From positions 112,929 to 132,928 of the forward strand of contig JBEKXF010000010.1 in NCBI GenBank assembly GCA_049512315.1: 20,000 nt of DNA, given 5' to 3'. Positions 1 through 18,521 of the stretch are shown here, one piece after another. The DNA comes from Candidatus Aminicenantales bacterium (GTDB lineage Bacteria > Acidobacteriota > Aminicenantia > Aminicenantales > Saccharicenantaceae). A model generated the notes under the pieces. That model did no database searches. It saw nothing but the letters and a program-made list of their open reading frames with translations, and had not been told where the DNA came from. The position numbers and the translations under genes are program-made. Each line of letters starts with the position of its first letter. The stretch's first letter is position 1.

Positions 1-582
1 GGCCCCCGCGACGAAATCGTTGAGGACCAGGTCCAATCTCAACCTGTCGCTCCAGCCGCAGGCGGTCGAAAACCTCAACGACGTCACCTTGAACGATTTG
101 GAGGCTAGCGGTTCCAGGTCCCTTTCCGTATAAACCTTGGATTTCGCGTAGGCCGTCAGGGGGTTCAACCGCGACCGCTCTGTCCTCGCGCTGTCGTCGG
201 CCGTGCCGTACATGCTGCAGCTCGAAGCGAAGATGAACGACCTGACACCCGCATCTCTTGCCCTCCGGGCGAGGCCGATGCTGGCCCGATAGTTGATGTC
301 AAGCGTCACTTCCTCGAACCTGTCCCCGATGGGGTCGTTGGAAATGGCGGCTAGATGGACGACGGCATCCACCCCTTGAAGGACCTCTTCGGGGAGCCTC
401 CGGACGTCCGCGAAATATTGAATATTCAGCTTGCGCTCGGCGAGCGCCCCCATGCCCGTCGTACAATTGCCGTAATAACCGATGTCCAGTCCGGCCAGAA
501 TGGAGTCCGGATGCGACGCGCGGAGCTGATTGACAACGGCCGGCCCGACATAACCCAGATTTCCGGTGATGAGGATCTTCAT
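1..582 (-). CDS. NAD-dependent epimerase/dehydratase (extended SDR); 3' end runs off the window
   Basis: Not in the ORF track; translated by hand from ATG at 582 with GAGGAGAGGGA upstream: MKILITGNLGYVGP...HLAAISNDP...FIFASSCSMYG...LNPLTAYAKSK...LRFSTACG. Contains the GxxGxxG and YxxxK motifs. Confidence 0.92.
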   Translation of the reverse strand, partial: MKILITGNLGYVGPAVVNQLRASHPDSILAGLDIGYYGNCTTGMGALAERKLNIQYFADVRRLPEEVLQGVDAVVHLAAISNDPIGDRFEEVTLDINYRASIGLARRARDAGVRSFIFASSCSMYGTADDSARTERSRLNPLTAYAKSKVYTERDLEPLASKSFKVTSLRFSTACGWSDRLRLDLVLNDFVAGA

Positions 583-645
583 GGAGGTCCCTCTCCTCAT
601 ATAAACTATGTGATTCCCGGTTCAGCGTCAATCCCTTTTCTCTCC

Positions 646-675
646 TTGAAACTCCCGGCTTGGGGGTGGTATATT
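646..675 (+). promoter_or_regulatory. Putative sigma70 promoter for the wzy-GT2-wzx operon
   Basis: TTGAAA (646-651), 18-bp spacer ending TGG, then TATATT (670-675; extended -10), in the divergent intergenic gap. Confidence 0.5.
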
Positions 676-705
676 GACGGGCGGAAAAGAGAAGAGGAGA
701 CATAC

Positions 706-2049
706 TTGTTGCCAACACTCGCATTAGCCTTATGCATAGTCTTCGTCCTTTTCCTGCTTCGACTCGAACACAAACAGAGCCCTGATATAACCAGAGCCCT
801 CTGGGTCCCGACCGTCTGGGTGCTTTACATCGCCAGCAAGCCGCTGGGGATATGGTTCCAATCAGCGAGCGGCGCCCCTGAGGCGGGAAGCCCTTTGGAC
901 AGGACCTTCCAAATCTTTCTCATGCTGGTGGCCCTGGTCATACTCGTCCGGAGAGAATTCGACTGGTCCGGCGCTATAAAAGAGAATCCGTGGTTGGTTG
1001 CACTCATCCTCTTTATGCTCGTCAGCGTTATCTGGTCGGACCTGCCGACGATTTCTTTTAAACGGTGGGTAAGGGAGCTCCTGGCGGTCCTAATGGCCTT
1101 CGTCGTCCTCTCGGAGCCATCACCCCGGAAGGCCCTGGAAAGCATCCTCAGAAGGGCGACCTACGTCCTTATTCCCTTCTCTCCCCTTCTCATCAAGTAT
1201 TTCCATGAATACGGCGTCGAATACGGCCCTTGGTCGGGCGAGGAAATGTGGATCGGAGTTACCCTCCAAAAGAACAGCTTGGCCAGTCTGTGCATGATTT
1301 CCATCGTTTTTCTGATCTGGTCACTTATCAGGAGATGGCAGGGACACAACGCCCAGGTTTGGAAGTATCAGACTCTCATGGAGATATTCGTTCTGGGGTT
1401 AGCTTTTTGGCTCATGGGCGGGCCCAGGGGCAATATTTTCTATTCCGCCACATCGGTCTATGCTCTTAGTGCGGGCCTCCTGGTTTACGGAGGATACTTT
1501 ATAGCGAAGAGATATAACAGGAGGATATCGTCCGGCGCATTAAGATCCGCCGTGATCGTCATCATTGTTTTTGGAGTCGTTTCCGTGTATACCGGTGGGT
1601 CGAGGTTGAGATTCTTCGCCTCTTCAGCGGGGCGGGATGCGACCTTGACCGGCAGAACTGAAGTGTGGGCATCGCTGTTGCCCGTGGTGATGAGGAGCCC
1701 GCTTATCGGAGGTGGATTTGGGGGCTTTTGGACCCCAAGAACCCAGGAGCTATTCCGGATCACCGGAGCTCACAGCGGATATCTGGACGTCCTCATAGGC
1801 CTCGGCTTCGCCGGGGTAGTGCTCGTTTCCTTATTCTTTTTATCTTCGTGCCGCAAAGCCCACCAAGAACTTTCCCGAGACTTCGATTGGGGAATCCTCT
1901 GGATTTGCTATATCATCATGTCCGTGGTTCACAACATCGGCGAGTCTTCAATGGATTCTTTCACGAGTTATCTGACCGCGATCGTCCTGTTTTTTACTGT
2001 TTCTTCTTCGCCTATCTTTCGCGCTAAGAGCGACTCCGTTGGAAATTAG
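706..2049 (+). CDS. O-antigen ligase / Wzy polymerase family membrane protein
   Basis: Many hydrophobic helices, with TLTGRTEVW...PLIGGGFGGFW...AHSGYLDVLIGLG Wzy_C-type motifs. Start moved from 355 to TTG 706 (GAGGAG at 694-699) because the upstream part overlaps the - strand epimerase. Confidence 0.88.
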   Translation: MLPTLALALCIVFVLFLLRLEHKQSPDITRALWVPTVWVLYIASKPLGIWFQSASGAPEAGSPLDRTFQIFLMLVALVILVRREFDWSGAIKENPWLVALILFMLVSVIWSDLPTISFKRWVRELLAVLMAFVVLSEPSPRKALESILRRATYVLIPFSPLLIKYFHEYGVEYGPWSGEEMWIGVTLQKNSLASLCMISIVFLIWSLIRRWQGHNAQVWKYQTLMEIFVLGLAFWLMGGPRGNIFYSATSVYALSAGLLVYGGYFIAKRYNRRISSGALRSAVIVIIVFGVVSVYTGGSRLRFFASSAGRDATLTGRTEVWASLLPVVMRSPLIGGGFGGFWTPRTQELFRITGAHSGYLDVLIGLGFAGVVLVSLFFLSSCRKAHQELSRDFDWGILWICYIIMSVVHNIGESSMDSFTSYLTAIVLFFTVSSSPIFRAKSDSVGN

Positions 2050-2060
2050 AATCTGACGCC

Positions 2061-2972
2061 ATGAAAGACCATATCTCCGTCTGTATTTGTACGTTCCATC
2101 GTAACGAAATGTTAGAGCGACTGTTGCATAGCCTGAGGCCGCAGGAAACTGCCGGCCTATTCGATTTTTCGGTTGTAGTTGTAGACAACGACGCCGCGGG
2201 GCCAGCCCGGGATACGGTTTCGCGGCTGAGTGCCGAGCTCGGTTTGGATATTGTCTACGGCATCGAGCCGGAGCAAACGATTCCCGCTGCCAGAAACCAT
2301 GCCTTGCGGCTCGCGCGCGGCAACTACATCGCCATCATCGATGATGATGAATTCCCGCCGCAAACCTGGTTAGTCACGTTGTACCGGGCCATCCAGACGT
2401 TCAGAGTGGATGGGGCCCTGGGGCCGGTGCATCCATTTTTTAGCGGACAACCCCGGGCATGGTTGTTAAAAGGGCGCTTTTGCGAGCGTCCGGTTTACAG
2501 GACCGGCACCCTCCTGGATTGGAGACAAACCCGGACCGGCAATGTCCTTTTGAAGAGAGGCGCCTTTGACAGCCATCAACTCCGTTTTGACTTGAAGTGC
2601 AGGACGAGCGGCTCGGACCGCAAATTCTTCAAGCAGGCGATGGAGTTGGGCTACAGGTTCGTCTCCGTGAAAGAAGCTCCGGTTTACGAGGTTGTACCTC
2701 CCGAGCGTTGGACCAGAGGCTTCTACGTGAAGCGATCTCTCCTTCAAGGGCTCAACGCGCATAGGAACTTCGTCGGAGAGTGGCGCGGGACTTCGCGCAT
2801 TATCGCGCCCGTGAGATCGGTCGCCGCCCTAGCGGGCTACGCTGTGGCCCTTCCTTTAGCGGCATGCATGGGAGCCCACCTCTTGACGAAGTGCTTGGCA
2901 GGGGGCGCCTACCATCTCGGCTGGTTTTCATCCATGCTCGGCATCGAACTGGTCAAGAAACGGGATTTTTAG
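2061..2972 (+). CDS. Glycosyltransferase family 2 (303 aa)
   Basis: ISVCICTFHR, VVVVDND, ARNHAL and IAIIDDDE GT-A motifs. Confidence 0.93.
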   Translation: MKDHISVCICTFHRNEMLERLLHSLRPQETAGLFDFSVVVVDNDAAGPARDTVSRLSAELGLDIVYGIEPEQTIPAARNHALRLARGNYIAIIDDDEFPPQTWLVTLYRAIQTFRVDGALGPVHPFFSGQPRAWLLKGRFCERPVYRTGTLLDWRQTRTGNVLLKRGAFDSHQLRFDLKCRTSGSDRKFFKQAMELGYRFVSVKEAPVYEVVPPERWTRGFYVKRSLLQGLNAHRNFVGEWRGTSRIIAPVRSVAALAGYAVALPLAACMGAHLLTKCLAGGAYHLGWFSSMLGIELVKKRDF

Positions 2973-4297
2973 TGAAGCTTTTCCTGCTAAGTCTCCTCGC
3001 CAAGCTAAGGAAATCCTTATTCTTCAAGAACATGATGGTCGTCATGGCCGGCACGGGCATGGCCCAAGTCATCGGTTTCCTCCTGTCTCCGGTAATCAGT
3101 CGCCTATTTTCCCCTTCGGACTTTGGTGTGTCCGGCTCCTTCGCGGCTGTAGCCGGCGTTATTATGGCTGGCGTGACGTTGGGATATGACACGGCGATCA
3201 TGCTTCCGAAAGACAAAGAGCACGCTTTCAACATTTTTTCTCTTTCGATCCTCTGCACGGTCATTATTAGCTTCATAAGCCTGTTGTGGTGCCTGATTGC
3301 TCCCGCAACCGCGAACGGCTTGATGAAAACCCAAGGCGCTTGGCCATTGGCACTGCTCGTATTATCGATTATGGTTTATGGTATCAATTCGTCATGCCAG
3401 GCCTGGTCGGTAAGAGCCAAGGCTTTCAAGGCTATATCGGCATCGCAGCTGATTCGAAGCGTATCCGCAAACGGATCGAGACTCGGCTTTGGCCTGTTAA
3501 AGGGGGGTGCCCAGGGCCTCATTATCAGCGGCATTCTGGGCGATTCGTTGGCCAGCATCAACCTTGTTCGTGTGCTACTTCCCGACGTTGCGGCCATGCG
3601 AGGTCGAGTTCGATGGGGTTTGATTAAGGGATTGGCCAAAGAATATCGCGATTTCCCCTTATATATGGCTTCTCAGAATGTCATCAATGCTCTATCGGGG
3701 GGGTTGCCGATTTTCCTCTTAGCTCACTTTTTCGGCATAGCAATAACCGGGGCTTACGCCTTCGGCATAACCGTTATTAGCACGCCGATGGGGCTCATAA
3801 CAGGTGCGCTTCGGCAAGTGCTCTTTCAGAAGGCCAGCGAATGTCAGCACCAGGGCGGAAGCCTGGCCGCGCTCTATGTCAAGGTTACGGCCGTTCTATT
3901 TGCAATGGCCCTCGTGCCTTCGGCTATCTTGATCATCTGGGCACCTCAGCTGTTCACGTGGATATTCGGATCCCAGTGGCAACTGGCGGGGGAGTTTGCG
4001 AGAAGCTTGATCATTTGGCTGGCAGTCGTATTCTGCAACGTCCCGGCGGTCCTGTTCGCAAGGATCATCAGGATCCAACGCTTTGTTTTCTTCTATGATT
4101 TGGGACTGCTGGCCGCGAGGACCTCGGCCTTGGTCTTAGGAGGCTTGTTGCTCAATGCCCACCAAACCGTTATGCTGTTCGCGCTTGCGGGCGCGGCGAT
4201 GAATGCGTTCCTGATTTTCTATGTGGGCCGCGCCGTGATGAAGAAAGAGGGATCTATTAACTTGGACAGCGTACGGGATTTACTCATAAAAGAATAG
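2972..4297 (+). CDS. wzx: Wzx-type oligosaccharide flippase
   Basis: Polytopic membrane protein with FFKNMMVVMAGTGMAQVIGFLLSPVISRLFSPSDFG and KEYRDFPLY, typical of flippases. Probable GTG start overlaps the upstream TAG (TAGTG). Confidence 0.88.
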   Translation: MKLFLLSLLAKLRKSLFFKNMMVVMAGTGMAQVIGFLLSPVISRLFSPSDFGVSGSFAAVAGVIMAGVTLGYDTAIMLPKDKEHAFNIFSLSILCTVIISFISLLWCLIAPATANGLMKTQGAWPLALLVLSIMVYGINSSCQAWSVRAKAFKAISASQLIRSVSANGSRLGFGLLKGGAQGLIISGILGDSLASINLVRVLLPDVAAMRGRVRWGLIKGLAKEYRDFPLYMASQNVINALSGGLPIFLLAHFFGIAITGAYAFGITVISTPMGLITGALRQVLFQKASECQHQGGSLAALYVKVTAVLFAMALVPSAILIIWAPQLFTWIFGSQWQLAGEFARSLIIWLAVVFCNVPAVLFARIIRIQRFVFFYDLGLLAARTSALVLGGLLLNAHQTVMLFALAGAAMNAFLIFYVGRAVMKKEGSINLDSVRDLLIKE

Positions 4298-4312
4298 CTT
4301 CGGAGGAAGAAC

Positions 4313-4381
4313 ATGAGCTACTTTTATGCCGGATACAGAACCGATATGTCCGCGACTCCTGAAGAGGGAATTCATGGGTGA
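4313..4381 (+). other. 22-codon mini-ORF (MSYFYAGYRTDMSATPEEGIHG), possible gene-deletion scar or coupling peptide
   Basis: GGAGG at 4302-4306, 6 nt before ATG 4313; the stop codon lies just inside the next gene (ATGGGTGA). Confidence 0.4.
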
Positions 4382-5285
4382 CCACATCTCGGTCTGCGTC
4401 TGCACATACCGCAGGAATTCCATGCTTGCTAGACTACTGCGGAATCTGGCTCTCCAGGATACGCGTGGTCGGTTCACCTTTTCTGTGGTCGTGGTTGACA
4501 ACGATCCTTCCGGGCCGGCGCGGGCGGAAGTTGCGCGACTAAGGTCGGAAGTGAGCATGGAGATTGTATATGGCGTTGAGCCTGAGAGAACGATCCCTGC
4601 GGCCAGAAATCATGCCATTCGCCTGGCGAAAGGCAACTTCATCGGGATCATGGACGATGATGAATTCCCTCCTCCTCATTGGTTAATCACACTCTACCAA
4701 GCCGTGCGAACTTTCGAAGTGGACGGCGCTTTAGGGCCCGTCATTCCTTTCTTTGAACAACCCCCCCCGGCATGGCTCAAAAGGAGTGGGCTGTGCGACC
4801 TTCCGCAGTGGCGTACCGGAACATTACTGCAGTGGCAGCAAACCCGTACAGGAAATGTCTTGCTCAAGAAGGACGTATTTGACCGATATGGGATTTGTTT
4901 TGACGAGACATTCAGAACCGGCGGGTCGGACCAGGCCTTCTTCAGACATGCGATGGGATTAGGTTTTCGGTTCGTTGCAGTTGAGGAGGCTCCTGTTTAC
5001 GAAATCGTGCCTCCCGAACGCTGGAGCAAGAGTTATTTCTTACGTCGAGCGCTCGTAAACGGTTTCAATGCCCAGAAATACCTGGCAACCGAGGGCCGTA
5101 AACTGAAGTCGATCACTGCTATTCTCAAGTCGGCTATTGCCGTATCGGTCTATACGGTAATTGCTCCAGTTTGTGCCTGCATAGGAACTCACGTATTGAT
5201 GAACTGCATGGAAAGGGGATTCTATCATCTGAGCAGGCTTTCGGCCGCGGTCGGAATCGAGCTGTGGAAGAAGCGGGACTTCTAA
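4374..5285 (+). CDS. Glycosyltransferase family 2 (303 aa), paralog of 2061-2972
   Basis: MGDHISVCVCTYRR, VVVVDND and IGIMDDDE. ATG 4374 follows GAGGGA and gives the same length and the same GIELxKKRDF C-terminus as the paralog. Confidence 0.93.
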   Translation: MGDHISVCVCTYRRNSMLARLLRNLALQDTRGRFTFSVVVVDNDPSGPARAEVARLRSEVSMEIVYGVEPERTIPAARNHAIRLAKGNFIGIMDDDEFPPPHWLITLYQAVRTFEVDGALGPVIPFFEQPPPAWLKRSGLCDLPQWRTGTLLQWQQTRTGNVLLKKDVFDRYGICFDETFRTGGSDQAFFRHAMGLGFRFVAVEEAPVYEIVPPERWSKSYFLRRALVNGFNAQKYLATEGRKLKSITAILKSAIAVSVYTVIAPVCACIGTHVLMNCMERGFYHLSRLSAAVGIELWKKRDF

Positions 5286-5309
5286 CAAGGCTCCTCCTTC
5301 CCTAGATGC

Positions 5310-5336
5310 CCTAAGCCTACCCGAGAGGGTCTTAGG
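5310..5336 (+). terminator. Stem-loop after GT2 (terminator or mRNA stabiliser)
   Basis: CCTAAG-(CCT bulge)-ACCC-GAGA-GGGT-CTTAGG with a GNRA tetraloop; no U-tract follows. Confidence 0.4.
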
Positions 5337-5364
5337 TGCAAACCGCGTCTGTCAGTTTTAGAAG

Positions 5365-5394
5365 TTGACACTTGCCCTCAGCCGGGACTATTAT
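5365..5394 (+). promoter_or_regulatory. sigma70 promoter
   Basis: TTGACA (5365-5370)-N18-TATTAT (5389-5394). The -35 box is one arm of the imperfect palindrome TGTCAGTTT-TAG-AAGTTGACA (5350-5370). Confidence 0.65.
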
Positions 5395-5677
5395 CATTTC
5401 GTAAGAGGTAGTGAATTCCCGCGGCTTGATGTATGTCACCACGGTGTATGGCGAAATATGATGCTCCTATCAGAACTGCCGTGTCGGGGGCTATCTGCCA
5501 ACAATGCCCAGAGGGGCCATCTTCATTCCCTTGGCCCAAAGTAGCAGTGGACATCAAGAGGCTTTGACCTCGATCGCACGTTGGTAAAGCGTATGACGTA
5601 TCTGAGGTCGAGTTACTTCGGCTCTACCGGCTGTACCGAGTTCGTAAACTCGCCTTTTGATAAAGAGGGATATAATT

Positions 5678-6721
5678 ATGGATGAAGATTGGATAGTTAG
5701 CCGAAGTGATCCCGTATTGGTTACGGGGGCTGCCGGATTCGTCGGCTCGCGCGTGGTAGATTCATTGCTGCGCCTTGGTTTTAAGGACGTACGCTGCTTT
5801 GTGCGCCCGGCGAGTGAGAATGCTCTGTTGAAGGCTGTTTTACTTAAGCACCCAGAGAATCATTGTCAGATAATCCAAGGTAACCTCCTGTCGCAACAGG
5901 ATTGCGCTAGGGCGGCCGACGGAGTTGCGGTTATCTATCACCTAGTAGCCGGGCGGGGGAAGTCGTTCCCCGGATGCTTTCAGGGTTCCGTCATCACCAC
6001 CCGCAATCTTTTAGACGCCGTGGTTCGACACAAGAGGTTACGTCGTTTCGTAAACGTGAGCTCCTTTGCGGTTTATTCTAACCTTCGTCTGAGACGAGGT
6101 GCGATCTGGGACGAATCCTGTCCGTTGGAAGAGAATCTGGAAGAGCGCTATGATGCCTATGTCTATGGTAAAATCAAGCAGGATCAAATCGTGCTTGCCT
6201 ATCATCAAAAGCATGGGATTCCATATACGATTATCCGTCCAGGCATTGTTTTTGGCCCCGGCAAGAAGGCGATTCCGGGATCTATCGGAATGGATACATT
6301 TGGAATCTTCATACGCATTGGCGGGGCCGGCCGGATTCCGTTGACATACGTAGAAAATTGCGCAGATGCGATCGTCTTAGCAGGGCTTATTCCAGGCGTG
6401 GACGGAGAGGTGTTCAATGTCATGGACGATGATCTCCCCAAGAGCAGGAGATTTCTACGTGAATACAAGAACCGAGTTCGTCCGTTTCGGTCCATCTGGA
6501 TTCCTTATTGGCTAACCTACTTCCTCTACTATCTCTGGGAGCGCTATTCAGCGTGGTCCGCTGGACAATTGCCGCCGGTGTTTAACCGTCGCACCTGCTC
6601 CTTTTCCTGGAAGGGACATCTATATTCCAATAGCAAGTTAAAGGAACGCCTCGGTTGGGAGTGCCGAGTGCCCATGGGGGAAGCATTAGCCCGGTATTTT
6701 AGGTATCAAAAAGATGGATGA
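5678..6721 (+). CDS. NAD-dependent epimerase/dehydratase family protein
   Basis: VLVTGAAGFVG, FVNVSSFAVY, YVYGK (YxxxK) and IIRPGIVFGPG; ATG 5678 follows GAGGGA. Confidence 0.92.
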   Translation: MDEDWIVSRSDPVLVTGAAGFVGSRVVDSLLRLGFKDVRCFVRPASENALLKAVLLKHPENHCQIIQGNLLSQQDCARAADGVAVIYHLVAGRGKSFPGCFQGSVITTRNLLDAVVRHKRLRRFVNVSSFAVYSNLRLRRGAIWDESCPLEENLEERYDAYVYGKIKQDQIVLAYHQKHGIPYTIIRPGIVFGPGKKAIPGSIGMDTFGIFIRIGGAGRIPLTYVENCADAIVLAGLIPGVDGEVFNVMDDDLPKSRRFLREYKNRVRPFRSIWIPYWLTYFLYYLWERYSAWSAGQLPPVFNRRTCSFSWKGHLYSNSKLKERLGWECRVPMGEALARYFRYQKDG

Positions 6722-7862
6722 ACAAATTATGACAAGGGTGGCGATCATCGGGTGTGGATTTATCGCGGATCAGCATGCGGCTCAGCTTCGTACATTACCG
6801 TCCTGTGCGCTCATCGCCGCGTGCGACACCGAGGAATTGATGGCAAAACAGCTTGCCGATCGCTTTCACATCCAGCATGTGTTTACGGATGCGGAGGAAA
6901 TGCTTCGGAAAATCCAGCCGGATGTGGTGCATATCACGACTCCCGCTCAGACGCACTTTCCATTGGGACGGATGTGTCTGGAAGCCGGATGCCACGTCTA
7001 CTTAGAAAAACCGTTTACTGAGACAACGGCTGAAGCAAAAGCCCTTCTTCATCTCGCGCAGGAGAAACAGCTTCGGATTACGGTGGGGCATAACCTCCAA
7101 TTCAGCCCAGAGGCCATCCGGATGCGGGAACTTGTCAAAGCCGGATTCCTTGGCGGACCACCGATCCATATGGAGTCCATACAGTGTTACTCACACGATG
7201 ACCCAACTTATGGCAGGGTTGTCTTGGCGGATTCCAATCATTGGGTTAGACGTCTTCCCGGCTCGCTTCTACAAAACCTCATCAGCCACGGGATTAGCAA
7301 GATCGCAGAATTCCTAGTTGGCGATAATCCCAGCCTTATTTCCCTGAGCTTCAGCAGCGCTTTTTTGAGGGAACTCGGACAGAGCGATATCATCGATGAG
7401 GTGCGTGCGACCATTCAAGACGAGCAAGGCACAACGGCATTTTTCCTCTTCACCACGCAATTTGGGGCCGGATCCAACGAATTGCGTCTTTATGGGAAAT
7501 CGGGAATCCTGGTTATGGATAATACATACCGCACCGTTTTGCGCTATGGCCCTTCGCATTATAAAAGCTACTTGCGTTACTTTTTTGCCCCATGGACCCA
7601 TGCCCGGGAGCTTGCGCGCAATTCATTCCGCAACATGAAGCTCTTTGCAAGAAACGCTTTCCACATGGATTACGGGATGAAAAAACTGATGGAGCTTTTC
7701 TATGCCGCCATCAGGGATAACAAGCCCGATCCCATTTCGGCCGAAGAGATCCTGAGGACCTCTAGGATTATGGAAAATATTTTCGAGCAGATGCCGAAAC
7801 GCAGCGAACAAAAGTCCCTTCTTGACGCTTCGAGAGACCATGACCTATCTCATCCTGAATGA
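6714..7862 (+). CDS. Gfo/Idh/MocA family oxidoreductase
   Basis: RVAIIGCGFIA, PDVVHITTP, HVYLEKP and TVGHN motifs; overlaps the upstream stop (alternative ATG at 6729). Confidence 0.92.
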   Translation: MDEQIMTRVAIIGCGFIADQHAAQLRTLPSCALIAACDTEELMAKQLADRFHIQHVFTDAEEMLRKIQPDVVHITTPAQTHFPLGRMCLEAGCHVYLEKPFTETTAEAKALLHLAQEKQLRITVGHNLQFSPEAIRMRELVKAGFLGGPPIHMESIQCYSHDDPTYGRVVLADSNHWVRRLPGSLLQNLISHGISKIAEFLVGDNPSLISLSFSSAFLRELGQSDIIDEVRATIQDEQGTTAFFLFTTQFGAGSNELRLYGKSGILVMDNTYRTVLRYGPSHYKSYLRYFFAPWTHARELARNSFRNMKLFARNAFHMDYGMKKLMELFYAAIRDNKPDPISAEEILRTSRIMENIFEQMPKRSEQKSLLDASRDHDLSHPE

Positions 7863-8964
7863 CATTCCGACCCCCTGGCGAGAGCCTGTGTTCGAGCGGG
7901 TCTATCATTCTCTGTCGGGTGCGGTTCAGGTGGTATATTTTAAGAGCAACGAAAAGCGCCGGCTTTGGAGCTTCAGCTTAGGGAACCATCCGAAAAATAT
8001 TTTGCGTGGCATCACGATTACCACCCGTGACACAGAACGGTTCTTCAATCCGGGTATTTTGCCACTTCTCTTGCGCGAGCGGCCGCGTGTCGCGCTAATC
8101 TCCGCGAGCATAAAGGATCCTACGGCGTGGCTAGCGTTGGTAATTTGTAGGGTGCTAAGGACGAAAATAGCTCTTCTGGATGACACTTGGTTCGGCCGTG
8201 ATCGGGGGATCAATGCTCTGCAGAAGCTGGCCAGGCGTATCGTCTATAATGCTTTTGGAGACGCTTTTGTGGGCACCAGCCGGCAAACCCTTGCATTGTT
8301 TAGACATTACAACCGTCGTATCCTGCCGGAACAATTATTCTTGAGCCCCCTGGTCGCGGATAATGACTTTTTCCAAGAGCGGCTCGGCGGCAACCGACTT
8401 GAGCGGGGCTTTGATGTGATGTTTTCCGGCCGAATTGTCCCGGTAAAAAACCCCGAGTTTTTCGCTAAAGTCTGTGCCGGCGTCAAGGCACGGCTTGGAA
8501 GCTGCCGCGTTTTAATTATTGGCGAAGGCGATGAGCTCCTCAAGGCGGGCATGCGGGCAATATTCGAGAAGCACGGTGTAGAATATGAGTTTGCGGGCTT
8601 TATTCCACATAATATGCTTCCAAATTACTATGCACAGTCAAAATTGCTGTTATTACCAACCTCGGGCGACTGTTGGGGTGTGGTCATTAATGAGGCGATG
8701 TTGGCGGGAACCCCAGTGGTAACGACCGATATGACAGCAGCCGCAGGAGAACTGGTTCTAAATGAGCAGAACGGCTATGTTCTACCTTTGGAGGTTGATA
8801 CGTGGACTCAAGCGGTTGTCGAGATGCTCTCGAATGACGAAAAGTGGGAAAGGTTTTCAAAAAATGCGCAGAGCAAAGTGCAGGAGTTCAATTTCGACAC
8901 AGCTGCTGCAGGAATATTAGCGGCATTCAATTATCTGGAAGCTCAAAGGGGAGGGTCGGGTTAA
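7840..8964 (+). CDS. Glycosyltransferase family 4 (GT-B)
   Basis: MFSGRIVPVKNP and DCWGVVINEAMLAGTPVV (D/E-x7-E motif); ATG at 7840. Confidence 0.9.
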   Translation: MTYLILNDIPTPWREPVFERVYHSLSGAVQVVYFKSNEKRRLWSFSLGNHPKNILRGITITTRDTERFFNPGILPLLLRERPRVALISASIKDPTAWLALVICRVLRTKIALLDDTWFGRDRGINALQKLARRIVYNAFGDAFVGTSRQTLALFRHYNRRILPEQLFLSPLVADNDFFQERLGGNRLERGFDVMFSGRIVPVKNPEFFAKVCAGVKARLGSCRVLIIGEGDELLKAGMRAIFEKHGVEYEFAGFIPHNMLPNYYAQSKLLLLPTSGDCWGVVINEAMLAGTPVVTTDMTAAAGELVLNEQNGYVLPLEVDTWTQAVVEMLSNDEKWERFSKNAQSKVQEFNFDTAAAGILAAFNYLEAQRGGSG

Positions 8965-11211: not shown

Positions 11212-11261
11212 ACTTCCTTCCTCACTCCCCGAGTTAGATTGCTCCTCTGTTTCTGCGCTGG

Positions 11262-12162: not shown

Positions 12163-12835
12163 GGGAACCCATTATCCAGGGCTCATGCGCTTTCCGGACG
12201 AGGACTGCAGGAAGACGATTTTCGCGTTGGCGAACGAGGCTTTGGAAGATGTGCCGGACTTTCCCGTCGGCATCAAAATCGACCACCTCCTCCGCGTCTT
12301 TCAAACGTGCAGCTCGGGCCTGATTTTCAAGAATCCCCGCTATCTTCCATTCGCGACAAGGCGAATGACCGGTACCGTATACAGCCTGCCGCCGATTTAT
12401 AAGCGGGGCGGCAAGCTCACGAAGGCCTGCACGGAGGTTCTGTTCCCCGAGCTGGCTTTCATAAAGACCCAGAAAGGCGGCCCGACGGTCAGGAAAACGC
12501 TGCTCAGGACCCATTTGTTCATGCCCGAATACCTGGCCACGGTAAAATCCATCGCCAGCGGCGCCCCAAGTAGGCTTTTAAAAGTGACGGAATCCAACAA
12601 GTCCGGGTTCAAGTGGAATACCAATGCGCCGGCCATCATTACGCTTCTCAACAGGCCGCCGTACGCCGACTGGTTCGCGTCATCGAAATCCATGATCACC
12701 GGACATTTATACGATGGCGGGGTCGTCGATTCGCTCATCGCCGACGCCAAGGGGGGCTCGAGCCGATACGCCCCGATCCTCGGCAGGATTTTCAATCAGG
12801 AATTGGCCTGTCGTTGGGTGTATCGCGAGAGATAG
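12163..12835 (+). pseudogene. C-terminal fragment of an asparagine-synthase-like protein, 5'-truncated at the IS end
   Basis: The frame is open back to the IS boundary and ATG 12185 has no clear RBS. LPFATRRMTGTVYSLPPIYKRGGKLTKACTEVLFPELAFIKT resembles the PFxD..SLP..K..L.PEL..I segment of Asn-synthase C-domains. Confidence 0.55.
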
Positions 12836-12846
12836 GCCGTAATTTT

Positions 12847-13779
12847 TCAGCGGCTGCGTCTTTTTTCCTTGGGCAATAAAGGCAGGGTGGCCAGCAGCCG
12901 AAAGGGGTTGAAGGGGTAGCCCAATTTTCGCAACGAGTCGAAATGGTAGCGCCAATACTCCCAGTTCCTTCTGAACTTAACCAGGTCTCTAGCCATCATC
13001 AAGTAATAATGCCGGAGATGCTTGCGGACGCAACGCTCGTATTCCGCGTCGGTCAAGAAGGCAGACCCGTGATTCCTCAGGATCCATAAAAACGAGGGGT
13101 AGCCGACCCTTAGGTAATGACTCTTGGGCGTCTGCGCATCACTGGGCCTGCGCGTGAAGGTCAGAACCTCATGAATGAACCCAAAATCGCCTTCCCTCAG
13201 GATCTTTAGGCACGCCTCCACATCGGCATACATATTGGAAGGATTAAAGAACGGAGGATGGGACCGGACCGGCTCGGCCCGGAGAAAATAGGACGTGGGT
13301 GAGCCGAAGGGGTCGGGCCACTCATCAAAAAAGAACCCTCTCGCGATATCCCGGCCGGAGAATACGGACTTCGAGGGCGGCAGGACTTTCAATCCGACCC
13401 GGTCATTGTCGATCCTGTAGGCGCTGGCCAGCGTGATGGTCGGGTGTTCCTCCCCGAGTTTCACGAACTTTTCGAGGCATTCCGGATAGATCCAGTCGTC
13501 GGCCTGGACCACTTTACAATACTCGGCCGAAGGACTCATCTCGGAGAAGGCGATATTGTGGTTTTCGATGATGCCGACGAAGGAGGTGTTGTTCACGATA
13601 CGGATGCGCCGGTCTTGGGCGGCATACTCCTCCACAATGGCCAGGGTCCCGTCCCGGCTGCGGTTATTGACAATGATGTATTCCCAATCCTGATAGGTTT
13701 GTTTGAGGACGCTTTCGATGCAGGCGCGGAGGTGCGCTTCTCCATCGAACACAGGCGTAAGGACACTTACTAACGGCAT
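12847..13779 (-). CDS. Glycosyltransferase family 2
   Basis: LVSVLTPVFDGE, CIESVLKQTYQDWEYIIVNNRSRDGT and KVVQADDW. Confidence 0.93.
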   Translation of the reverse strand: MPLVSVLTPVFDGEAHLRACIESVLKQTYQDWEYIIVNNRSRDGTLAIVEEYAAQDRRIRIVNNTSFVGIIENHNIAFSEMSPSAEYCKVVQADDWIYPECLEKFVKLGEEHPTITLASAYRIDNDRVGLKVLPPSKSVFSGRDIARGFFFDEWPDPFGSPTSYFLRAEPVRSHPPFFNPSNMYADVEACLKILREGDFGFIHEVLTFTRRPSDAQTPKSHYLRVGYPSFLWILRNHGSAFLTDAEYERCVRKHLRHYYLMMARDLVKFRRNWEYWRYHFDSLRKLGYPFNPFRLLATLPLLPKEKRRSR

Positions 13780-13807
13780 ATTTGGACCTTCCTCCCATCA
13801 AGGGTTG

Positions 13808-13889
13808 ACTATATAACCCGCTTGCAATTCCTGTCAAGAATATTCCTCGGTCCAGCGTCTTGACATTTTTCGCTGCCCCAATATATTAT
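13808..13889. promoter_or_regulatory. Back-to-back divergent sigma70 promoters
   Basis: - strand: TTGACA (13837-13832)-N18-TATAGT (13813-13808). + strand: TTGACA (13860-13865)-N18-TATTAT (13884-13889). The two -35 boxes form the IR TGTCAAGA...TCTTGACA. Confidence 0.65.
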
Positions 13890-13979
13890 TCTCTAGAAAC
13901 AAGGGTGGCGAAACCAGGTCAGTCGCAGGTCGATCATCCAATGATTGACCGCAAGGGGGGAGGAGGAGGTAGAGGCGTC

Positions 13980-15116
13980 ATGCGAATTGGAATAATCGGA
14001 ACCTCCCGCAAGGAAAACGAGCGCCGCGTGCCTATTTATCCCGAGCATCTGGCCCTTTATCCGGAGACCCTGCGAAAGAAAATGATTTTCGAAACGGGTT
14101 ACGGCCTGAATTACGGGTTAGAAGATGAATATTTTACGAGCTACGGTTCGGCCGTAGGCGAGAGGGACTCTCTGCTCGCCGAATGCGATCTGGTGCTCCT
14201 CCCGAAGCCGCTCCCTGCGGACCTCGCCTTAATGAAACCCCATCAAGTGCTCTTCGGTTGGTCTCATTCCGTCCAGCAGAAGACCATTGCGCAGCTGGCG
14301 ATCGATCGACGCCTTACCGTCATCTCCTGGGAGGCCATGAATCACTGGAGCCCGGGCGGCGAGAAGCTGGTTCACGTCTTCTACAAGAACAACGAGATCG
14401 CCGGTTACGCCGCTGTGCTGCATTGCCTTCAGCTCGTGGGCATCGACGGTCATTATGGACCGACAAGGAAGGTCATCGTCCTGAGTTACGGGTCGGTTAG
14501 TCGCGGGGCGATATACGCCCTGCAAGGCCACGGCTTCAAGGACATCCGTGTCTATACCCAGCGGCCTCCCTACCTCGTGGCAGACCAAAATCCCGACGTC
14601 CGTCACGGTCAGTATTATTATTCGGACGGCGGCGAGCTCATGGCCAGGAACTCGGACGGCAAGGAATTCCCCCTGATAGAGGAGTTGGGATACGGGGATA
14701 TCATCTGCAACGGAATCCTTCAGGATACGAATAAGCCGATCGTTTTTGTCAAGGACGATGAAGTCGGGAAGCTGAAGCCGAGGTCCGTGATCATCGACAT
14801 CAGCTGTGACGAAGGGATGGGATTTTCGTTCGCGCGCCCGACGACGTTTAAGGACCCGGTTTTTGAGGTGGGGAAGAAAATCACGTATTATTCCGTGGAC
14901 CATACGCCGTCCTATCTCTGGAGCGCGGCTTCGAGAGAGATCTCGATCGCCCTGCTCCCCTACATGGAGATCATCGAAGCGGGAGAACGCGCATGGGAGC
15001 GGGAGAAGACGATCGCGCGGGCGATCGATATTCGCGATGGTGTCGTGCAAAATCCCAACCTCCTTTCTTTTCAACGGCGAAAAAAAGAATATCCCCACGA
15101 AATCGAAGAGCCTTAA
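13980..15116 (+). CDS. ceo: N5-(carboxyethyl)ornithine synthase-like protein (AlaDH/PNT superfamily, opine-forming reductive condensation)
   Basis: GIIGTSRKENERRVPIYPEH, FETGYG, GWSHSVQ, HVFYKNNEIAGYAAV, SYGSVSRGA, IIDISCD and YSVDHTPSYLW; ATG 13980 follows a GGAGG-rich RBS. Confidence 0.8.
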   Translation: MRIGIIGTSRKENERRVPIYPEHLALYPETLRKKMIFETGYGLNYGLEDEYFTSYGSAVGERDSLLAECDLVLLPKPLPADLALMKPHQVLFGWSHSVQQKTIAQLAIDRRLTVISWEAMNHWSPGGEKLVHVFYKNNEIAGYAAVLHCLQLVGIDGHYGPTRKVIVLSYGSVSRGAIYALQGHGFKDIRVYTQRPPYLVADQNPDVRHGQYYYSDGGELMARNSDGKEFPLIEELGYGDIICNGILQDTNKPIVFVKDDEVGKLKPRSVIIDISCDEGMGFSFARPTTFKDPVFEVGKKITYYSVDHTPSYLWSAASREISIALLPYMEIIEAGERAWEREKTIARAIDIRDGVVQNPNLLSFQRRKKEYPHEIEEP

Positions 15117-15119
15117 AGA

Positions 15120-16055
15120 GTGGCTGAATCCAGATTCGCCGAGATAAAAAGAATCCTGGCCAGACCTTTCTTGACAAGAATCTCCGACAAAATGGAGATT
15201 CTACGAAATCGTTTCTTGTTGGGCCTATCGCCGTTGTTGTTCATGAGATACCGCTACCTCAAAGAGGCGCGCAAGTGGTATGATCATAAGAATCCCAGAA
15301 CTTTTGACGAGAAACTCCTCTGGCTGAACCTCTACTGGCGGCATCCGCTCAAAGCAAGGTGTGCGGACAAGTATGCCGTGCGCTCGTATGTCGAAGAGCA
15401 TGGGATGGGTCATCTTCTAACGGAATTGCTGGGCATGTATGCGAACAGCAGCGAGATCGACTTCAGCAGACTCCCGGATCGATTCGTCCTCAAGTGCACT
15501 CACGGCTGCGGGTTCAACGTTTTCTGTACGGACAAAAGCAGACTGGACGTTGAAGAAACGAGGCGAAAATTGAACGCCTGGATGAAGCTCGATATCAGCA
15601 AGTTTACGGGCGAGATGCATTATGTTTCGATAAAGCCGAGGATCATATGCGAAGCCTACTTGGAGGGCCTGCCCGGCAAGCCGATCAACGATTACAAGGT
15701 GTATTGTTTCCACGGAAAAGCGCATTGCACGATGGCTTGCACGGACCGGACCGAAAAGGGCGCAAAATACGATTTCTATGATCGCGAGTGGAAAAACAAG
15801 CTGCGCTACAGCAAGTCGAGCCTATTGGTCGATCGGACTATTCCCAAGCCCGAGGCCTACGAGGAAATCATCCAGGCCGCCGAGGCCCTCTCGAAACCCT
15901 TCCCGTTCGTCCGCATGGACTTCTATAGCATCAATGGCAAGGCCGTCTTCGGAGAAATGACATTTACCCCGCATGGATGCATCGATACATTAATGACAGA
16001 TTTGGCCCAGGATGTCATGGGCGATCTGCTGAAGCTGCCAAAAAAACGTCTGTGA
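15120..16055 (+). CDS. TupA-like ATP-grasp amidoligase
   Basis: NPRTFDEKLLWL, CADKYAVRSYV, FVLKCTHGCG, PRIICEAYL, DYKVYCFHG, FVRMDFY and FGEMTFTP. Start is GTG 15120 or ATG 15192. Confidence 0.9.
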   Translation: MAESRFAEIKRILARPFLTRISDKMEILRNRFLLGLSPLLFMRYRYLKEARKWYDHKNPRTFDEKLLWLNLYWRHPLKARCADKYAVRSYVEEHGMGHLLTELLGMYANSSEIDFSRLPDRFVLKCTHGCGFNVFCTDKSRLDVEETRRKLNAWMKLDISKFTGEMHYVSIKPRIICEAYLEGLPGKPINDYKVYCFHGKAHCTMACTDRTEKGAKYDFYDREWKNKLRYSKSSLLVDRTIPKPEAYEEIIQAAEALSKPFPFVRMDFYSINGKAVFGEMTFTPHGCIDTLMTDLAQDVMGDLLKLPKKRL

Positions 16056-16062
16056 TAACCGG

Positions 16063-16689
16063 CTACCAGTTAAAGATCACGGCCTCGGAAAGCTTGACAA
16101 TATTCTCGTCCACCAGGCGCCGGCCGGAGAACCGGAAACGGCAAAGCTCGAGATTGGCCGGATAGCGTGCCAGGGATTCGATACAGTTCAAGCCCCTGAG
16201 CACCCCATGGAACATCTGCAGAAAGACGCCGTGGGATACGACCAGGATATTAGAGCCGAAATATTCCTTGAACAGAAACCCCCGGAATTTCCTGGCCCGT
16301 TCCCAAACCTCCTCGAACGGCTCGCCCCCCTTCGGGTTGACCGTATGCAGGTCGCTCCCGACGGTGATCATGAGGATTGGAGGCTGAAGGTTTTGGATAT
16401 CGTCCCAGGTCAGGCCCTCCATCACTCCGAACTTGCGCTCGTTACACAGCTTGTTCCGGACGATCGTTACCCTGTCGCCGGCGAGAATCTGGGCAGTTTC
16501 AAAGGCCCGTTTTTGCATCGATGTGACGACGACATCGAATTTCGCCTGGGCGAGCTTTGCGGCGGCTTTCCGGGCATCTCGGATCCCGGCCTCGCTGAGC
16601 GAGATATCCAATGTTCCGGCGTACCGCTTTTCGGCGTTGTATTGCGTGTGAGCGTGCCTTAACGTGCTGATTGTCGTTTGGACGGGCAC
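16063..16689 (-). CDS. Histidine phosphatase / phosphoglycerate-mutase family protein
   Basis: LRHAHT (RHG variant), TSMQKRAFETA, NERKFGVMEG, GGEPF and VVSHG. Confidence 0.88.
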   Translation of the reverse strand: MPVQTTISTLRHAHTQYNAEKRYAGTLDISLSEAGIRDARKAAAKLAQAKFDVVVTSMQKRAFETAQILAGDRVTIVRNKLCNERKFGVMEGLTWDDIQNLQPPILMITVGSDLHTVNPKGGEPFEEVWERARKFRGFLFKEYFGSNILVVSHGVFLQMFHGVLRGLNCIESLARYPANLELCRFRFSGRRLVDENIVKLSEAVIFNW

Positions 16690-16695
16690 GATCGC

Positions 16696-17868
16696 TTACT
16701 CCGTGAGCCTGAAGATCTCATTCAACCGCACGACCGACGAGTAATCCGTCTGGAGCGGGCCGATCTTGATGTACTTCACGTCGTACATGCAGGTCAGCGT
16801 GGAGAGGAAGGTCTCTTCCGTGCTGATGGACCGGTGAGAGGTGATGGCGATCTGGCCCGTGCGCTGGGCGGACTCGACCGCCCGCCGCACCGCGGTGACG
16901 GTTCCGGCCTGATTGGGCTTGATCACGGCACCGTGCGTGCATTGTTTTTCCGCGCCGGCCTCGATCCTCCCGGCATCGGATGAGTAGAAGTTGTCGCCGA
17001 TCGTGTAGCACGCCTGTTGTGAGGTCGTCAGACGCCTCCAGCTCTCCGGATCCTGCTCGCGGAACGGGTCCTCGAGGAAGCGAAGGCCGTATTGCCGGAT
17101 GATGTCCATCCAATATTCGTGGAATTGCTCGCTCGTCCGCAATGAGCCGTCCGTGATGGGCAGATGATATCCCTTTTCGGTCCACAGATCCCCGGCGGAA
17201 GCGTCGATCATCAGGTCGTACTGGTCCGCTAGCCCCAGGCCATCCCGGATCTTCAGAAGAAAATCGATGCATTCCCGGTTGTCGGCTGTGGCGAAGCGGT
17301 TCACCGAGTTGCCCGAGACAACTGTTTTTGTCTGGCCGCGGAGCTTCTCTTTGACCGCCTTCTGGATCTCATTGTGATCCCCGATCACTTCCTCGGGATC
17401 ATTGCTCCTGGCGACGAGGATATATTCATGAAAGTCGCTCAACACCGGGTTCGTGTAGGCGTGCCAGCCTCCGTTCAGGATGTTCAGGCAGAGGCATGGA
17501 GGTGCCAGCCTGGTTTTCGGTTTGCCGAAGAGCTCAAAAAGGGACCGGGTTTTTCTTGTCGCGTTAAAAAAAGCTAGGGAAAGGCTGAACGCGTTGTTGC
17601 GGCCGATTAAAGGGATCTCACGCTGTAGGCCATCATCGAACGTCTCCTGGTCAATCTCCTTTCCAACGCATCCGACCTCTTCCAGCTTCCTGATGATCGT
17701 ATCGGGGCTGATAGTGATCTTCTTGTCTTCGTAAATGCTGATGGTCTCGCCTTGCGGCGAACCGCCGATGCCGATGGCCCCATCCGTGAACTCGACAGTG
17801 AATTCATTCGTGAATTCGACGTGGGAATTGAGGATCTTCCTGCAGGAGATCGATTGAATGATTGCCAT
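16696..17868 (-). CDS. Divergent enolase-like protein (390 aa)
   Basis: NILNGGWHA, FLEDPF, IGDN, IKPNQAGT, SHRS and YIKIG match enolase, but the SGAST and GDEGG motifs are absent. GGGAGG RBS precedes the ATG. Confidence 0.85.
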   Translation of the reverse strand: MAIIQSISCRKILNSHVEFTNEFTVEFTDGAIGIGGSPQGETISIYEDKKITISPDTIIRKLEEVGCVGKEIDQETFDDGLQREIPLIGRNNAFSLSLAFFNATRKTRSLFELFGKPKTRLAPPCLCLNILNGGWHAYTNPVLSDFHEYILVARSNDPEEVIGDHNEIQKAVKEKLRGQTKTVVSGNSVNRFATADNRECIDFLLKIRDGLGLADQYDLMIDASAGDLWTEKGYHLPITDGSLRTSEQFHEYWMDIIRQYGLRFLEDPFREQDPESWRRLTTSQQACYTIGDNFYSSDAGRIEAGAEKQCTHGAVIKPNQAGTVTAVRRAVESAQRTGQIAITSHRSISTEETFLSTLTCMYDVKYIKIGPLQTDYSSVVRLNEIFRLTE

Positions 17869-18288: not shown

Positions 18289-18521
18289 CGAACAGAATTT
18301 ATGTGTTGGAAGATGAAAACAGGCAAGTTCCCCACCCAGTCTTATCGAGGGTTACCTCAATATAAAAATCGGTTAGCCATAATCTGCTTGAAATACCCTT
18401 CCCAATCCTCTTTGGGGGTGAGCACCAGCATCCAGATCGGGTCGACTCACTCTTACAGGAAACAATGAGAGATCAATTTGCTCTATTCTCGAAACCCGAT
18501 CAGGGGAGGGAGGAATTAACG

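What the first reader, a model, noticed from the sequence alone, without database searches (positions are those of the whole stretch)
13980..16055. Opine synthase + TupA-like ATP-grasp module: candidate pathway for carboxyethyl-amino-acid decoration of polysaccharide
Seen: a ceo-like gene and a TupA-like ligase are separated by 3 bp, have their own promoter, and diverge from a GT2 within a polysaccharide locus. Known: Lactococcus CeoS condenses pyruvate with ornithine or lysine using NADPH, and its physiological role is unclear. TupA-like ATP-grasp enzymes are linked to amide attachment of amino acids on surface polymers. Uronic-acid amides of N-epsilon-(1-carboxyethyl)lysine occur in some Proteus/Providencia O-antigens. 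Inference: the first enzyme makes the opine and the second ligates it to a uronate, giving ceo homologs a cell-envelope role.
Basis: partly seen in the sequence, partly recalled or inferred. Interest (0 to 1): 0.78.

Follow-up and report, generated by a model that had tools for sequence, protein, structure and literature searches.

The report
Opine-synthase plus amide-ligase polysaccharide cassette
Two neighbouring genes in a surface-polysaccharide gene cluster probably make an unusual pyruvate-linked amino acid and attach it to an acidic sugar, giving testable candidate genes for a decoration known from bacterial surface chemistry, although the substrates are not shown and close relatives keep the ligase without its partner.

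Summary
Both genes are real: a 378-aa AlaDH/PNT-superfamily reductase (13980-15116) and a TupA-like ATP-grasp ligase (15120-16055), 3 bp apart, divergent from a GT2 in a polysaccharide locus. The reductase is not an ordinary alanine dehydrogenase: it scores 80 bits against a 392 cut-off, has an NADP-type motif, and groups with proteins annotated carboxyethyl-ornithine synthase (95/91). It is only 28-29% identical to those, so it is not a shown CeoS. Of 80 related loci, 13 are polysaccharide loci; in 11 of these the gene directly adjoins an amide ligase of three families (TupA, RimK-like, AsnB-like). None of the other 67 has a hit to these ligases. An E. coli capsule cluster repeats the pairing. 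Against an obligate pair: three same-family genomes keep the orthologous ligase in the same slot with no reductase found, and most of the reductase family lies outside polysaccharide loci. Best reading (0.55): an optional module adding an N-carboxyalkyl amino acid, probably carboxyethyl-lysine or -ornithine, to a uronate as an amide; step order and substrates are inferred. No link to a chemically characterised strain was possible. This scan reported the same idea earlier on other DNA (e1-4514849, e1-6636240).

The parts
13980..15116 (+). Long-form CEOS-like reductase, AlaDH/PNT superfamily, 378 aa (P0001); candidate NADPH-dependent opine synthase
   Evidence: Pfam PF05222 and PF01262; R16, K76, H96, D277 invariant in 74 homologues; model pLDDT 95.8, AlaDH fold Z 35.4; clade with short CEOS-annotated proteins 95/91
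15120..16055 (+). TupA-like ATP-grasp amide ligase, 311 aa (P0002)
   Evidence: PF14305 157.7 bits; ATP-grasp matches LysX, ArgX, Ddl, RimK by Foldseek, TM about 0.4; K84, K125, E178, D191, K193, R265, D267, E279 invariant in 40 homologues
13780..13979 (.). 200-bp divergent intergenic region with back-to-back sigma70-like sites (13860-13889 +, 13837-13808 -) and a purine-rich ribosome-binding-like stretch before 13980
   Evidence: consensus matches only
12847..13779 (-). GT2 glycosyltransferase, divergent; left border of the variable cassette slot in close relatives
   Evidence: PF00535; same position in L001-L003, L093, L095, L096, L175-L177
16063..16689 (-). Histidine phosphatase, convergent, 7 bp from the ligase stop; conserved beside this ligase clade with or without the reductase
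   Evidence: PF00300
16696..17868 (-). Divergent enolase-like gene co-oriented with the phosphatase; another enolase homologue (26% identical) lies on contig C30
   Evidence: PF00113; TIGR01060 127.7 bits against cut-off 300
355..8964 (+). Core polysaccharide genes: Wzy_C polymerase/ligase, GT2, flippase, GT2, NAD epimerase, Gfo/Idh oxidoreductase, GT4

Best explanation
The two genes are an optional tailoring module of a Wzx/Wzy-type surface polysaccharide. P0001 reductively condenses a 2-oxo acid, most likely pyruvate, with the side-chain amine of a basic amino acid (lysine or ornithine) using NADPH. P0002 activates the C6 carboxylate of a hexuronate in the repeat unit or growing chain as an acyl phosphate and joins it to the free alpha-amine, giving an N-alpha-uronoyl-N-omega-(1-carboxyethyl) amino acid. 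I favour free opine first, then ligation, but the reverse order (ligate Lys/Orn, then alkylate on the glycan) fits equally well with relatives that keep the ligase and lack the reductase. Shown: gene anatomy, family placement, catalytic residues, recurring adjacency to ligases. Inferred: cofactor, both substrates, the uronate acceptor and the order.
For: (1) Of 80 loci, 13 carry polysaccharide genes. In 11 of the 13 the reductase directly adjoins an amide-ligase gene: 6 TupA, 2 RimK-like, 3 AsnB-like. None of the other 67 gave a hit with those ligase queries. (2) Reverse scan: of 13 metagenome loci, 8 have a TupA of 63% identity or more directly after the reductase, one of them identical to the window. 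(3) 23 contig lengths are shared between the two top-120 homologue lists, against 1.1 after jittering; one pair has neighbouring locus tags. (4) An E. coli plasmid capsule cluster holds a 40%-identical reductase overlapping a RimK-like ATP-grasp gene, with an NAD-dependent epimerase and a nucleotide-sugar dehydrogenase. (5) P0001 keeps the keto-acid/catalytic residues, shares W-x-H and Y-x-N-x3-A-G-Y-A motifs with short CEOS-annotated proteins, lacks the acidic NAD determinant and has Arg there, and groups with them apart from AlaDH and LKR (95/91). (6) Cj1438C, a TupA-like domain, amidates GlcA C6 (PMC11800379, passages); the carboxyethyl-lysine amide of GalA exists in Providencia rustigianii O14 (PMC10609480, passages).
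Against: (1) G858, G1009 and G1046 hold a 67-69% identical ligase of the same clade (98/98) in the same slot with no reductase in the slot and none found in the genome (71-92% complete). (2) In the own class, 18 of 24 TupA-bearing genomes have no adjacent reductase, and 7 of 13 reductase-bearing genomes have no adjacent TupA. (3) 67 of 80 loci and all 6 non-self hits among 401 phylum genomes are outside polysaccharide loci; 2 of those 6 follow a saccharopine dehydrogenase. (4) Identity to short CEOS-type proteins is 28-29%, against 23-26% for AlaDH; profile scores are 120-122 against 105-113 bits; the tree has long branches. (5) No UDP-sugar dehydrogenase was found in the 60 kb of this contig examined; one lies on contig C39, and the contig ends at the window end. 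(6) Many TupA-paired loci are close kin and not independent. (7) One TupA-like protein, CfmP, acts independently of surface polysaccharides (PMC13419641, passages).
Confidence: 0.55

Rival explanations
1. P0001 is a divergent, NADP-preferring dehydrogenase making a simple amino acid such as L-alanine, which the ligase attaches to the uronate.
For: Nearest solved fold is alanine dehydrogenase (Z 35.4, rmsd 2.5, 345 aligned, against Z 27.7 for saccharopine dehydrogenase). One AlaDH query found no other ald in the genome. L-alanine amides of uronic acids occur (PMC10609480 and PMC7685785, passages). Many sources label homologues 'alanine dehydrogenase'.
Against: TIGR00518 79.6 bits against cut-off 391.85; 23-26% identity; a 12-residue AlaDH segment is missing, as in short CEOS-type proteins; pocket positions differ and are invariant in the family (W94, F134, N137, D307); tree places it with CEOS-type proteins. 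Inference: a common amino acid needs no dedicated cassette gene.
Confidence: 0.15
2. P0002 follows the Campylobacter logic: it ligates a phosphorylated amine that the convergent histidine phosphatase then dephosphorylates, and the reductase product goes elsewhere or to a second ligase.
For: Cj1438C uses serinol-P or ethanolamine-P and Cj1435 removes the phosphate. The phosphatase and enolase-like genes flank the P0002 clade in all 13 loci of that clade (window, L001-L003, L093-L098, L175-L177), the reductase in 10 of the 13. FemAB-like and DegT genes lie upstream on this contig.
Against: The phosphatase is on the opposite strand and of another family (histidine phosphatase, not HAD). L005, L007, L010, L179 and L180 keep reductase plus TupA with no phosphatase or enolase hit. 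The linkage may be plain synteny among close kin.
Confidence: 0.15
3. The keto acid is not pyruvate: P0001 makes saccharopine (lysine plus 2-oxoglutarate) or another N-carboxyalkyl amino acid, which is then ligated.
For: Family members at 50% identity directly follow a saccharopine dehydrogenase gene in L118 and L120, which points to lysine chemistry in the family.
Against: The genome has its own LKR-SDH operon on C1. The family profile scores that LKR at only 11.5 bits, and P0001 has His132 where the LKR has Arg (the role of that Arg in binding 2-oxoglutarate is recalled). The SDH-linked members fall in another part of the tree.
Confidence: 0.1
4. The adjacency is incidental: a mobile housekeeping reductase landed in a variable locus and has nothing to do with the ligase.
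For: Patchy presence (0 of 5 same-genus genomes); most family members have unrelated neighbours.
Against: Direct adjacency to three ligase families in several lineages; crude per-locus chance of adjacency 0.15-0.53, 11 of 13 observed; ATP-grasp pairing recurs even outside polysaccharide loci (L125, L126).
Confidence: 0.05

Closest known systems
Cj1438 C-terminal domain, Campylobacter jejuni HS:2 capsule (TupA-like ATP-grasp amidoligase; PMC11800379, passages)
   Same: Same described fold class; stand-alone amine-supply enzyme plus ligase inside a polysaccharide locus; predicted amidation of a uronate C6.
   Different: Fused to a GT2; amine is serinol-P or ethanolamine-P from an aminotransferase, with a phosphatase afterwards. 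Here the ligase stands alone and its partner is an AlaDH/PNT-family reductase. No direct sequence comparison with Cj1438 was made.
N5-(carboxyethyl)ornithine synthase, EC 1.5.1.24, Lactococcus lactis (properties recalled; represented here by two 312-314 aa Lactobacillales plasmid proteins, one annotated CEOS)
   Same: Superfamily, catalytic Arg/Lys/His/Asp, NADP-type motif, shared motifs, common clade.
   Different: 28-29% identity, about 65 residues longer, polysaccharide context. The characterised enzyme itself was not available for comparison.
Clostridioides difficile type B flagellin glycan locus (CDR20291_0245 ATP-grasp plus _0246 ornithine-cyclodeaminase-like; PMC5207246, passages)
   Same: Adjacent ATP-grasp ligase and imine-reductase-type gene, both needed for an amino-acid-derived glycan decoration.
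   Different: Other families (PF13535 and OCD-like, not TupA and AlaDH/PNT); flagellin glycan; roles not determined in that paper.
N-epsilon-(1-carboxyethyl)-N-alpha-(D-galacturonoyl)-L-lysine of Providencia rustigianii O14 O-antigen (PMC10609480, passages)
   Same: Exactly the product the module would make.
   Different: Chemistry only; no genes assigned in what I read, and no genome of such a strain could be examined. A 77%-identical relative of the E. coli reductase is on record from Providencia rettgeri, context not seen.
Alanine dehydrogenase (TIGR00518) and LKR/saccharopine dehydrogenase
   Same: Same fold and keto-acid chemistry.
   Different: Far below cut-off; different cofactor motif; separate clades.

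Membership tests
N5-(carboxyethyl)ornithine synthase (EC 1.5.1.24) | AlaDH/PNT two-domain fold with conserved Arg, Lys, His, Asp | tested here: met
N5-(carboxyethyl)ornithine synthase (EC 1.5.1.24) | NADPH-type cofactor motif (no acidic residue after the second strand, Arg instead; significance recalled) | tested here: met
   T-Q-R in P0001, Y-R-K in short CEOS-type, Asp in AlaDH
N5-(carboxyethyl)ornithine synthase (EC 1.5.1.24) | Clade with CEOS apart from AlaDH and LKR | tested here: met
   95/91 with mixture model, SH-aLRT 87 with LG+G4; long branches; proxies, not the characterised enzyme
N5-(carboxyethyl)ornithine synthase (EC 1.5.1.24) | Orthologue-level similarity to the short Lactobacillales type | tested here: not met
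   28-29% identity, 378 aa against 312-314 aa
N5-(carboxyethyl)ornithine synthase (EC 1.5.1.24) | Condenses pyruvate with Orn/Lys | not testable with these tools
   needs an assay
Alanine dehydrogenase (TIGR00518) | Score above curated cut-off; NAD-binding Asp; full AlaDH segment near residue 150 | tested here: not met
   79.6 against 391.85 bits
Lysine-ketoglutarate reductase / saccharopine dehydrogenase (Lys-forming) | Sequence affinity and the Arg before the A-G motif (role recalled) | tested here: not met
   11.5 bits; His132 in place of Arg; Z 27.7 or lower
TupA-like ATP-grasp (PF14305) | Pfam score above gathering cut-off | tested here: met
   157.7 against 25 bits
TupA-like ATP-grasp (PF14305) | ATP-grasp fold with conserved Lys/Glu/Asp ATP and metal ligands | tested here: met
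   (TM about 0.4 to LysX, ArgX, Ddl)
Cj1438C-type uronate amidoligase | Amidates uronate C6 on a glycan acceptor | not testable with these tools
   context only
Cj1438C-type uronate amidoligase | Uronate-forming dehydrogenase in the same locus | tested here: inconclusive
   none found on C10 72929-132928, one on C39; contig ends at the window end; present in L002, L010, L081

The most novel reading that the evidence does not exclude
The 370-390 aa 'ceo-like' family is a distinct, uncharacterised group of opine synthases that has been coupled repeatedly to unrelated amide ligases (TupA, RimK-like, AsnB-like without a GATase hit, and ATP-grasp_4 with a peptide transporter). In polysaccharide loci it is the missing source of the carboxyethyl-lysine-type uronamides known from O-antigen chemistry, acting as a swappable add-on that turns a plain lysine amide into a differently charged epitope.
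Probability: 0.35. Interest if true: 0.75.

Novelty: new variant of a known kind. Interest (0 to 1): 0.55.

Why it matters
Amino-acid amides of uronic acids define serotypes and surface charge, and N-(1-carboxyethyl)lysine amides are known from structure work. I found no gene assignment for them in 9 library searches; several subscription papers that could hold one were not available. If right, the module names the two enzymes, makes the decoration predictable from genomes (including an E. coli plasmid-borne capsule), and gives a first role to part of a large family that databases label inconsistently as alanine dehydrogenase or CEOS. Two purified proteins suffice to test it.

Tried and rejected
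Plain alanine dehydrogenase, and LKR of lysine catabolism: tested and made unlikely. Strict ceo-TupA coupling: rejected. Envelope role for all ceo homologues: rejected. P0002 as a chimera of tandem paralogues: not supported, it is 95-100% identical to P0243 along its length. L016:4552-5556 as a TupA ligase: no match. No solved-structure sequence hit for P0002 at E 1; no entry named CEOS appeared in PDB sequence or fold results. Linking the pair to a strain of known O-antigen structure failed: no enterobacterial genome turned up among 151 sampled, the gene contexts of the Providencia, Edwardsiella, Shewanella, Vibrio and Aeromonas homologues were not seen, and the Proteus structure table (supplements of PMC5560731, old .doc files) could not be read and may bear on the novelty claim. 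Passages and section 13 of PMC5560731 and passages of PMC6124807 do not discuss such genes. Expression: no RNA holder listed. bioRxiv 2025.01.14.632903 had no passage on TupA or opines.

Full report
Observation. P0001 has both AlaDh_PNT domains and P0002 scores 157.7 bits on ATPgrasp_TupA. A GT2 gene diverges across 200 bp that hold sigma70-like sites at 11 of 12 matches on both strands (consensus only). A histidine phosphatase and a divergent enolase-like gene converge from the right. The window holds Wzy_C, flippase, GT2 and GT4 genes, and the 40 kb upstream hold further envelope genes: UDP-GlcNAc 2-epimerase, DegT, FemAB-like, MBOAT, AsnB. The contig ends at the window end. The closest named homologues include Candidatus Aminicenantes records.

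What P0001 is. It has the alanine dehydrogenase fold (pLDDT 95.8; Z 35.4, rmsd 2.5, 345 aligned) and keeps R16, K76, H96 and D277, which align with R15, K75, H96 and D270 of the M. tuberculosis enzyme and are invariant in 74 homologues. It is not an AlaDH member: 79.6 bits against a cut-off of 391.85, 23-26% identity, no acidic residue at the NAD position, and a 12-residue segment missing. Those features, and two short motifs, are shared with two 312-314 aa plasmid proteins of Lactobacillales, one annotated N(5)-(carboxyethyl)ornithine synthase. A 27-row mixture-model tree joins the long family and these two apart from two AlaDHs and one LKR at 95/91 (SH-aLRT 87 in a 63-row quick tree); branches are long. 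Identity to the short type is only 28-29%. The Atlas names the nearest clusters putative CEOS or putative AlaDH. So P0001 works most plausibly like CEOS, an NADPH opine synthase (properties recalled), but membership is not shown. The genome has a separate LKR-SDH operon on C1, so P0001 is not needed for lysine catabolism.

What P0002 is. A TupA-like ATP-grasp protein with conserved Lys, Glu and Asp residues whose model matches LysX, ArgX, Ddl and RimK at TM about 0.4. The one biochemically studied TupA-like domain that I read about, Cj1438C, amidates GlcA C6 on the growing capsule chain with serinol-P or ethanolamine-P (PMC11800379, passages). Proteus WemR is hypothesised to do the like, while Klebsiella CfmP acts independently of polysaccharides (PMC13419641, passages).

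Neighbourhood, for. One search kept the best 80 of 190 loci. Thirteen carry glycosyltransferase, flippase, polymerase or epimerase hits. In 11 of these 13 the reductase directly adjoins an amide-ligase gene: TupA in L001, L002, L003, L005, L007, L010; RimK-like ATP-grasp in L011, L019; AsnB-like in L009, L012, L014. L071 has an AMP-binding-like neighbour (cluster) and L016 none identified. None of the other 67 gave a hit with these ligase queries, and 150-odd neighbours scanned with Pfam showed no ATP-grasp beside a non-polysaccharide copy (I scanned the nearest genes of most, not all, loci, and some loci end at contig edges). A crude chance of adjacency is 0.15-0.53 per locus; the loci are not independent, as L001-L003 share the whole neighbourhood with the window and L005 and L007 lie on one contig. 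From the other side, of 13 metagenome loci found with P0002, 8 have a TupA of 63% or more directly after the reductase (L092, identical to the window, and L093-L099); L100-L102 (53-57%) have none in the fetched flanks, L103 is cut, and L104 has it 2.1 kb away. The two top-120 homologue lists share 23 contig lengths against 1.1 after jittering. An E. coli plasmid capsule cluster has wecA, a RimK-like ATP-grasp gene, a 40%-identical reductase, flippase, glycosyltransferases, polymerase, epimerase and nucleotide-sugar dehydrogenase; DNA matches occur in 5 of 5426 E. coli genomes, and the one chromosomal case inspected is an IS-broken remnant that also has a TupA fragment. In one of 400 gammaproteobacterial genomes two distant copies each follow an ATP-grasp_4 ligase, one beside a POT transporter.

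Neighbourhood, against. In 301 genomes of the own class the reductase was found in 13 and TupA in 24; the pair is adjacent in 6, the own genome included (this set overlaps). G858, G1009 and G1046 have the same slot between GT2 and phosphatase filled with two TupA genes, one 67-69% identical and in P0002's clade (98/98), and no reductase was found in them (completeness 71-92%, but the slot itself is contiguous). The phosphatase and enolase-like genes accompany that clade in 13 of 13 loci, the reductase in 10. All 6 non-self hits among 401 phylum genomes lie outside polysaccharide loci, two directly after a saccharopine dehydrogenase. Four same-family copies sit beside an unnamed protein with a MurL/QueC-like look instead. 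No uronate-forming dehydrogenase was found on the part of C10 examined; one lies on C39.

Mechanism. The asymmetry fits a supply gene: a polysaccharide-locus reductase nearly always has a ligase beside it, while the ligase often stands without it. A ligase that activates a uronate needs a free primary amine; an opine made on the side chain of Lys or Orn keeps one, and the resulting product is known chemically from Providencia rustigianii O14 (PMC10609480, passages). I therefore put 0.55 on a module that installs an N-carboxyalkyl amino acid amide, in either order, and about 0.35 on carboxyethyl-lysine specifically. Rivals: simple amino acid supply 0.15; phosphorylated amine with the phosphatase 0.15; another keto acid 0.10; chance 0.05. 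All substrate assignments are inference.

Known and new. The ligase step has a precedent (Cj1438C), the reductase chemistry has one (CEOS, recalled), and an ATP-grasp plus OCD-like pair is needed for the C. difficile type B flagellin glycan (PMC5207246, passages). I found no paper tying an AlaDH/PNT-family opine synthase to polysaccharide amidation in searches (listings, with passages of the papers cited); six papers I asked for were not held, and the Proteus supplements could not be read, so absence from print is not established. This scan noted the same idea on other DNA (e1-4514849, e1-6636240); those notes are unchecked, came after I had stated my reading, and add no support. Verdict: a real, recurring, optional cassette; new variant of a known kind; interest 0.55.

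Noticed in passing
L007:4733-5890; homologues in L004, L006, L008, L012, L014, L019, L048, L180 and twice on C10 (L130:12533-13684, 15295-16815): An unnamed 380-550 aa family with no Pfam hit often lies near the reductase, in and out of polysaccharide loci. The Atlas gives TM 0.66 to a MurL-like epimerase cluster, a weak QueC lead and one cluster fused to a polysaccharide pyruvyl transferase. It may be a further ATP-dependent ligase or epimerase.
   Followed up: partly
L093:3218-4099 and 4115-4999: Two tandem TupA paralogues are 100% identical over 480 bases and about 70% identical after that: recent gene conversion or an assembly artefact.
   Followed up: partly
window 16063-17868 (-): Histidine phosphatase plus divergent enolase-like gene (26% to the homologue on C30), conserved at 67-94% beside this TupA clade; role in a polysaccharide locus unexplained.
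   Followed up: partly
window 8961-12080 (-): A PKD-repeat ORF (10570-11289) overlaps out of frame a 578-aa beta-helix-like ORF, with an IS3-family transposase just upstream; probably one broken gene. An otherwise identical contig (L092) has about 63 more bases at the junction, and a second PKD gene at 18465-20000 runs into the same sequence at the contig end.
   Followed up: no
L118:4267-6755, L120:4472-7082: Long-form reductase directly after a saccharopine dehydrogenase, in place of a usual LKR: possible variant lysine pathway.
   Followed up: partly
L125:4319-8077, L126:4545-6909: ATP-grasp_4 ligase plus a distant (33%) reductase, one set beside a POT transporter and both near group II intron maturase genes: possible opine-dipeptide pathway.
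   Followed up: no
L117:806-7757: Reductase downstream of a one-module NRPS and an unknown 439-aa gene that has a homologue beside the reductase in L121.
   Followed up: no
L081:2113-20432: Complete capsule cluster flanked by IS91 copies on an E. coli IncFIB/IncY plasmid; its reductase is 99% identical to an Aeromonas hydrophila record.
   Followed up: partly
window 12185-12835 (+): 216-aa ORF with no Pfam or NCBIfam hit between the IS and the GT2.
   Followed up: no
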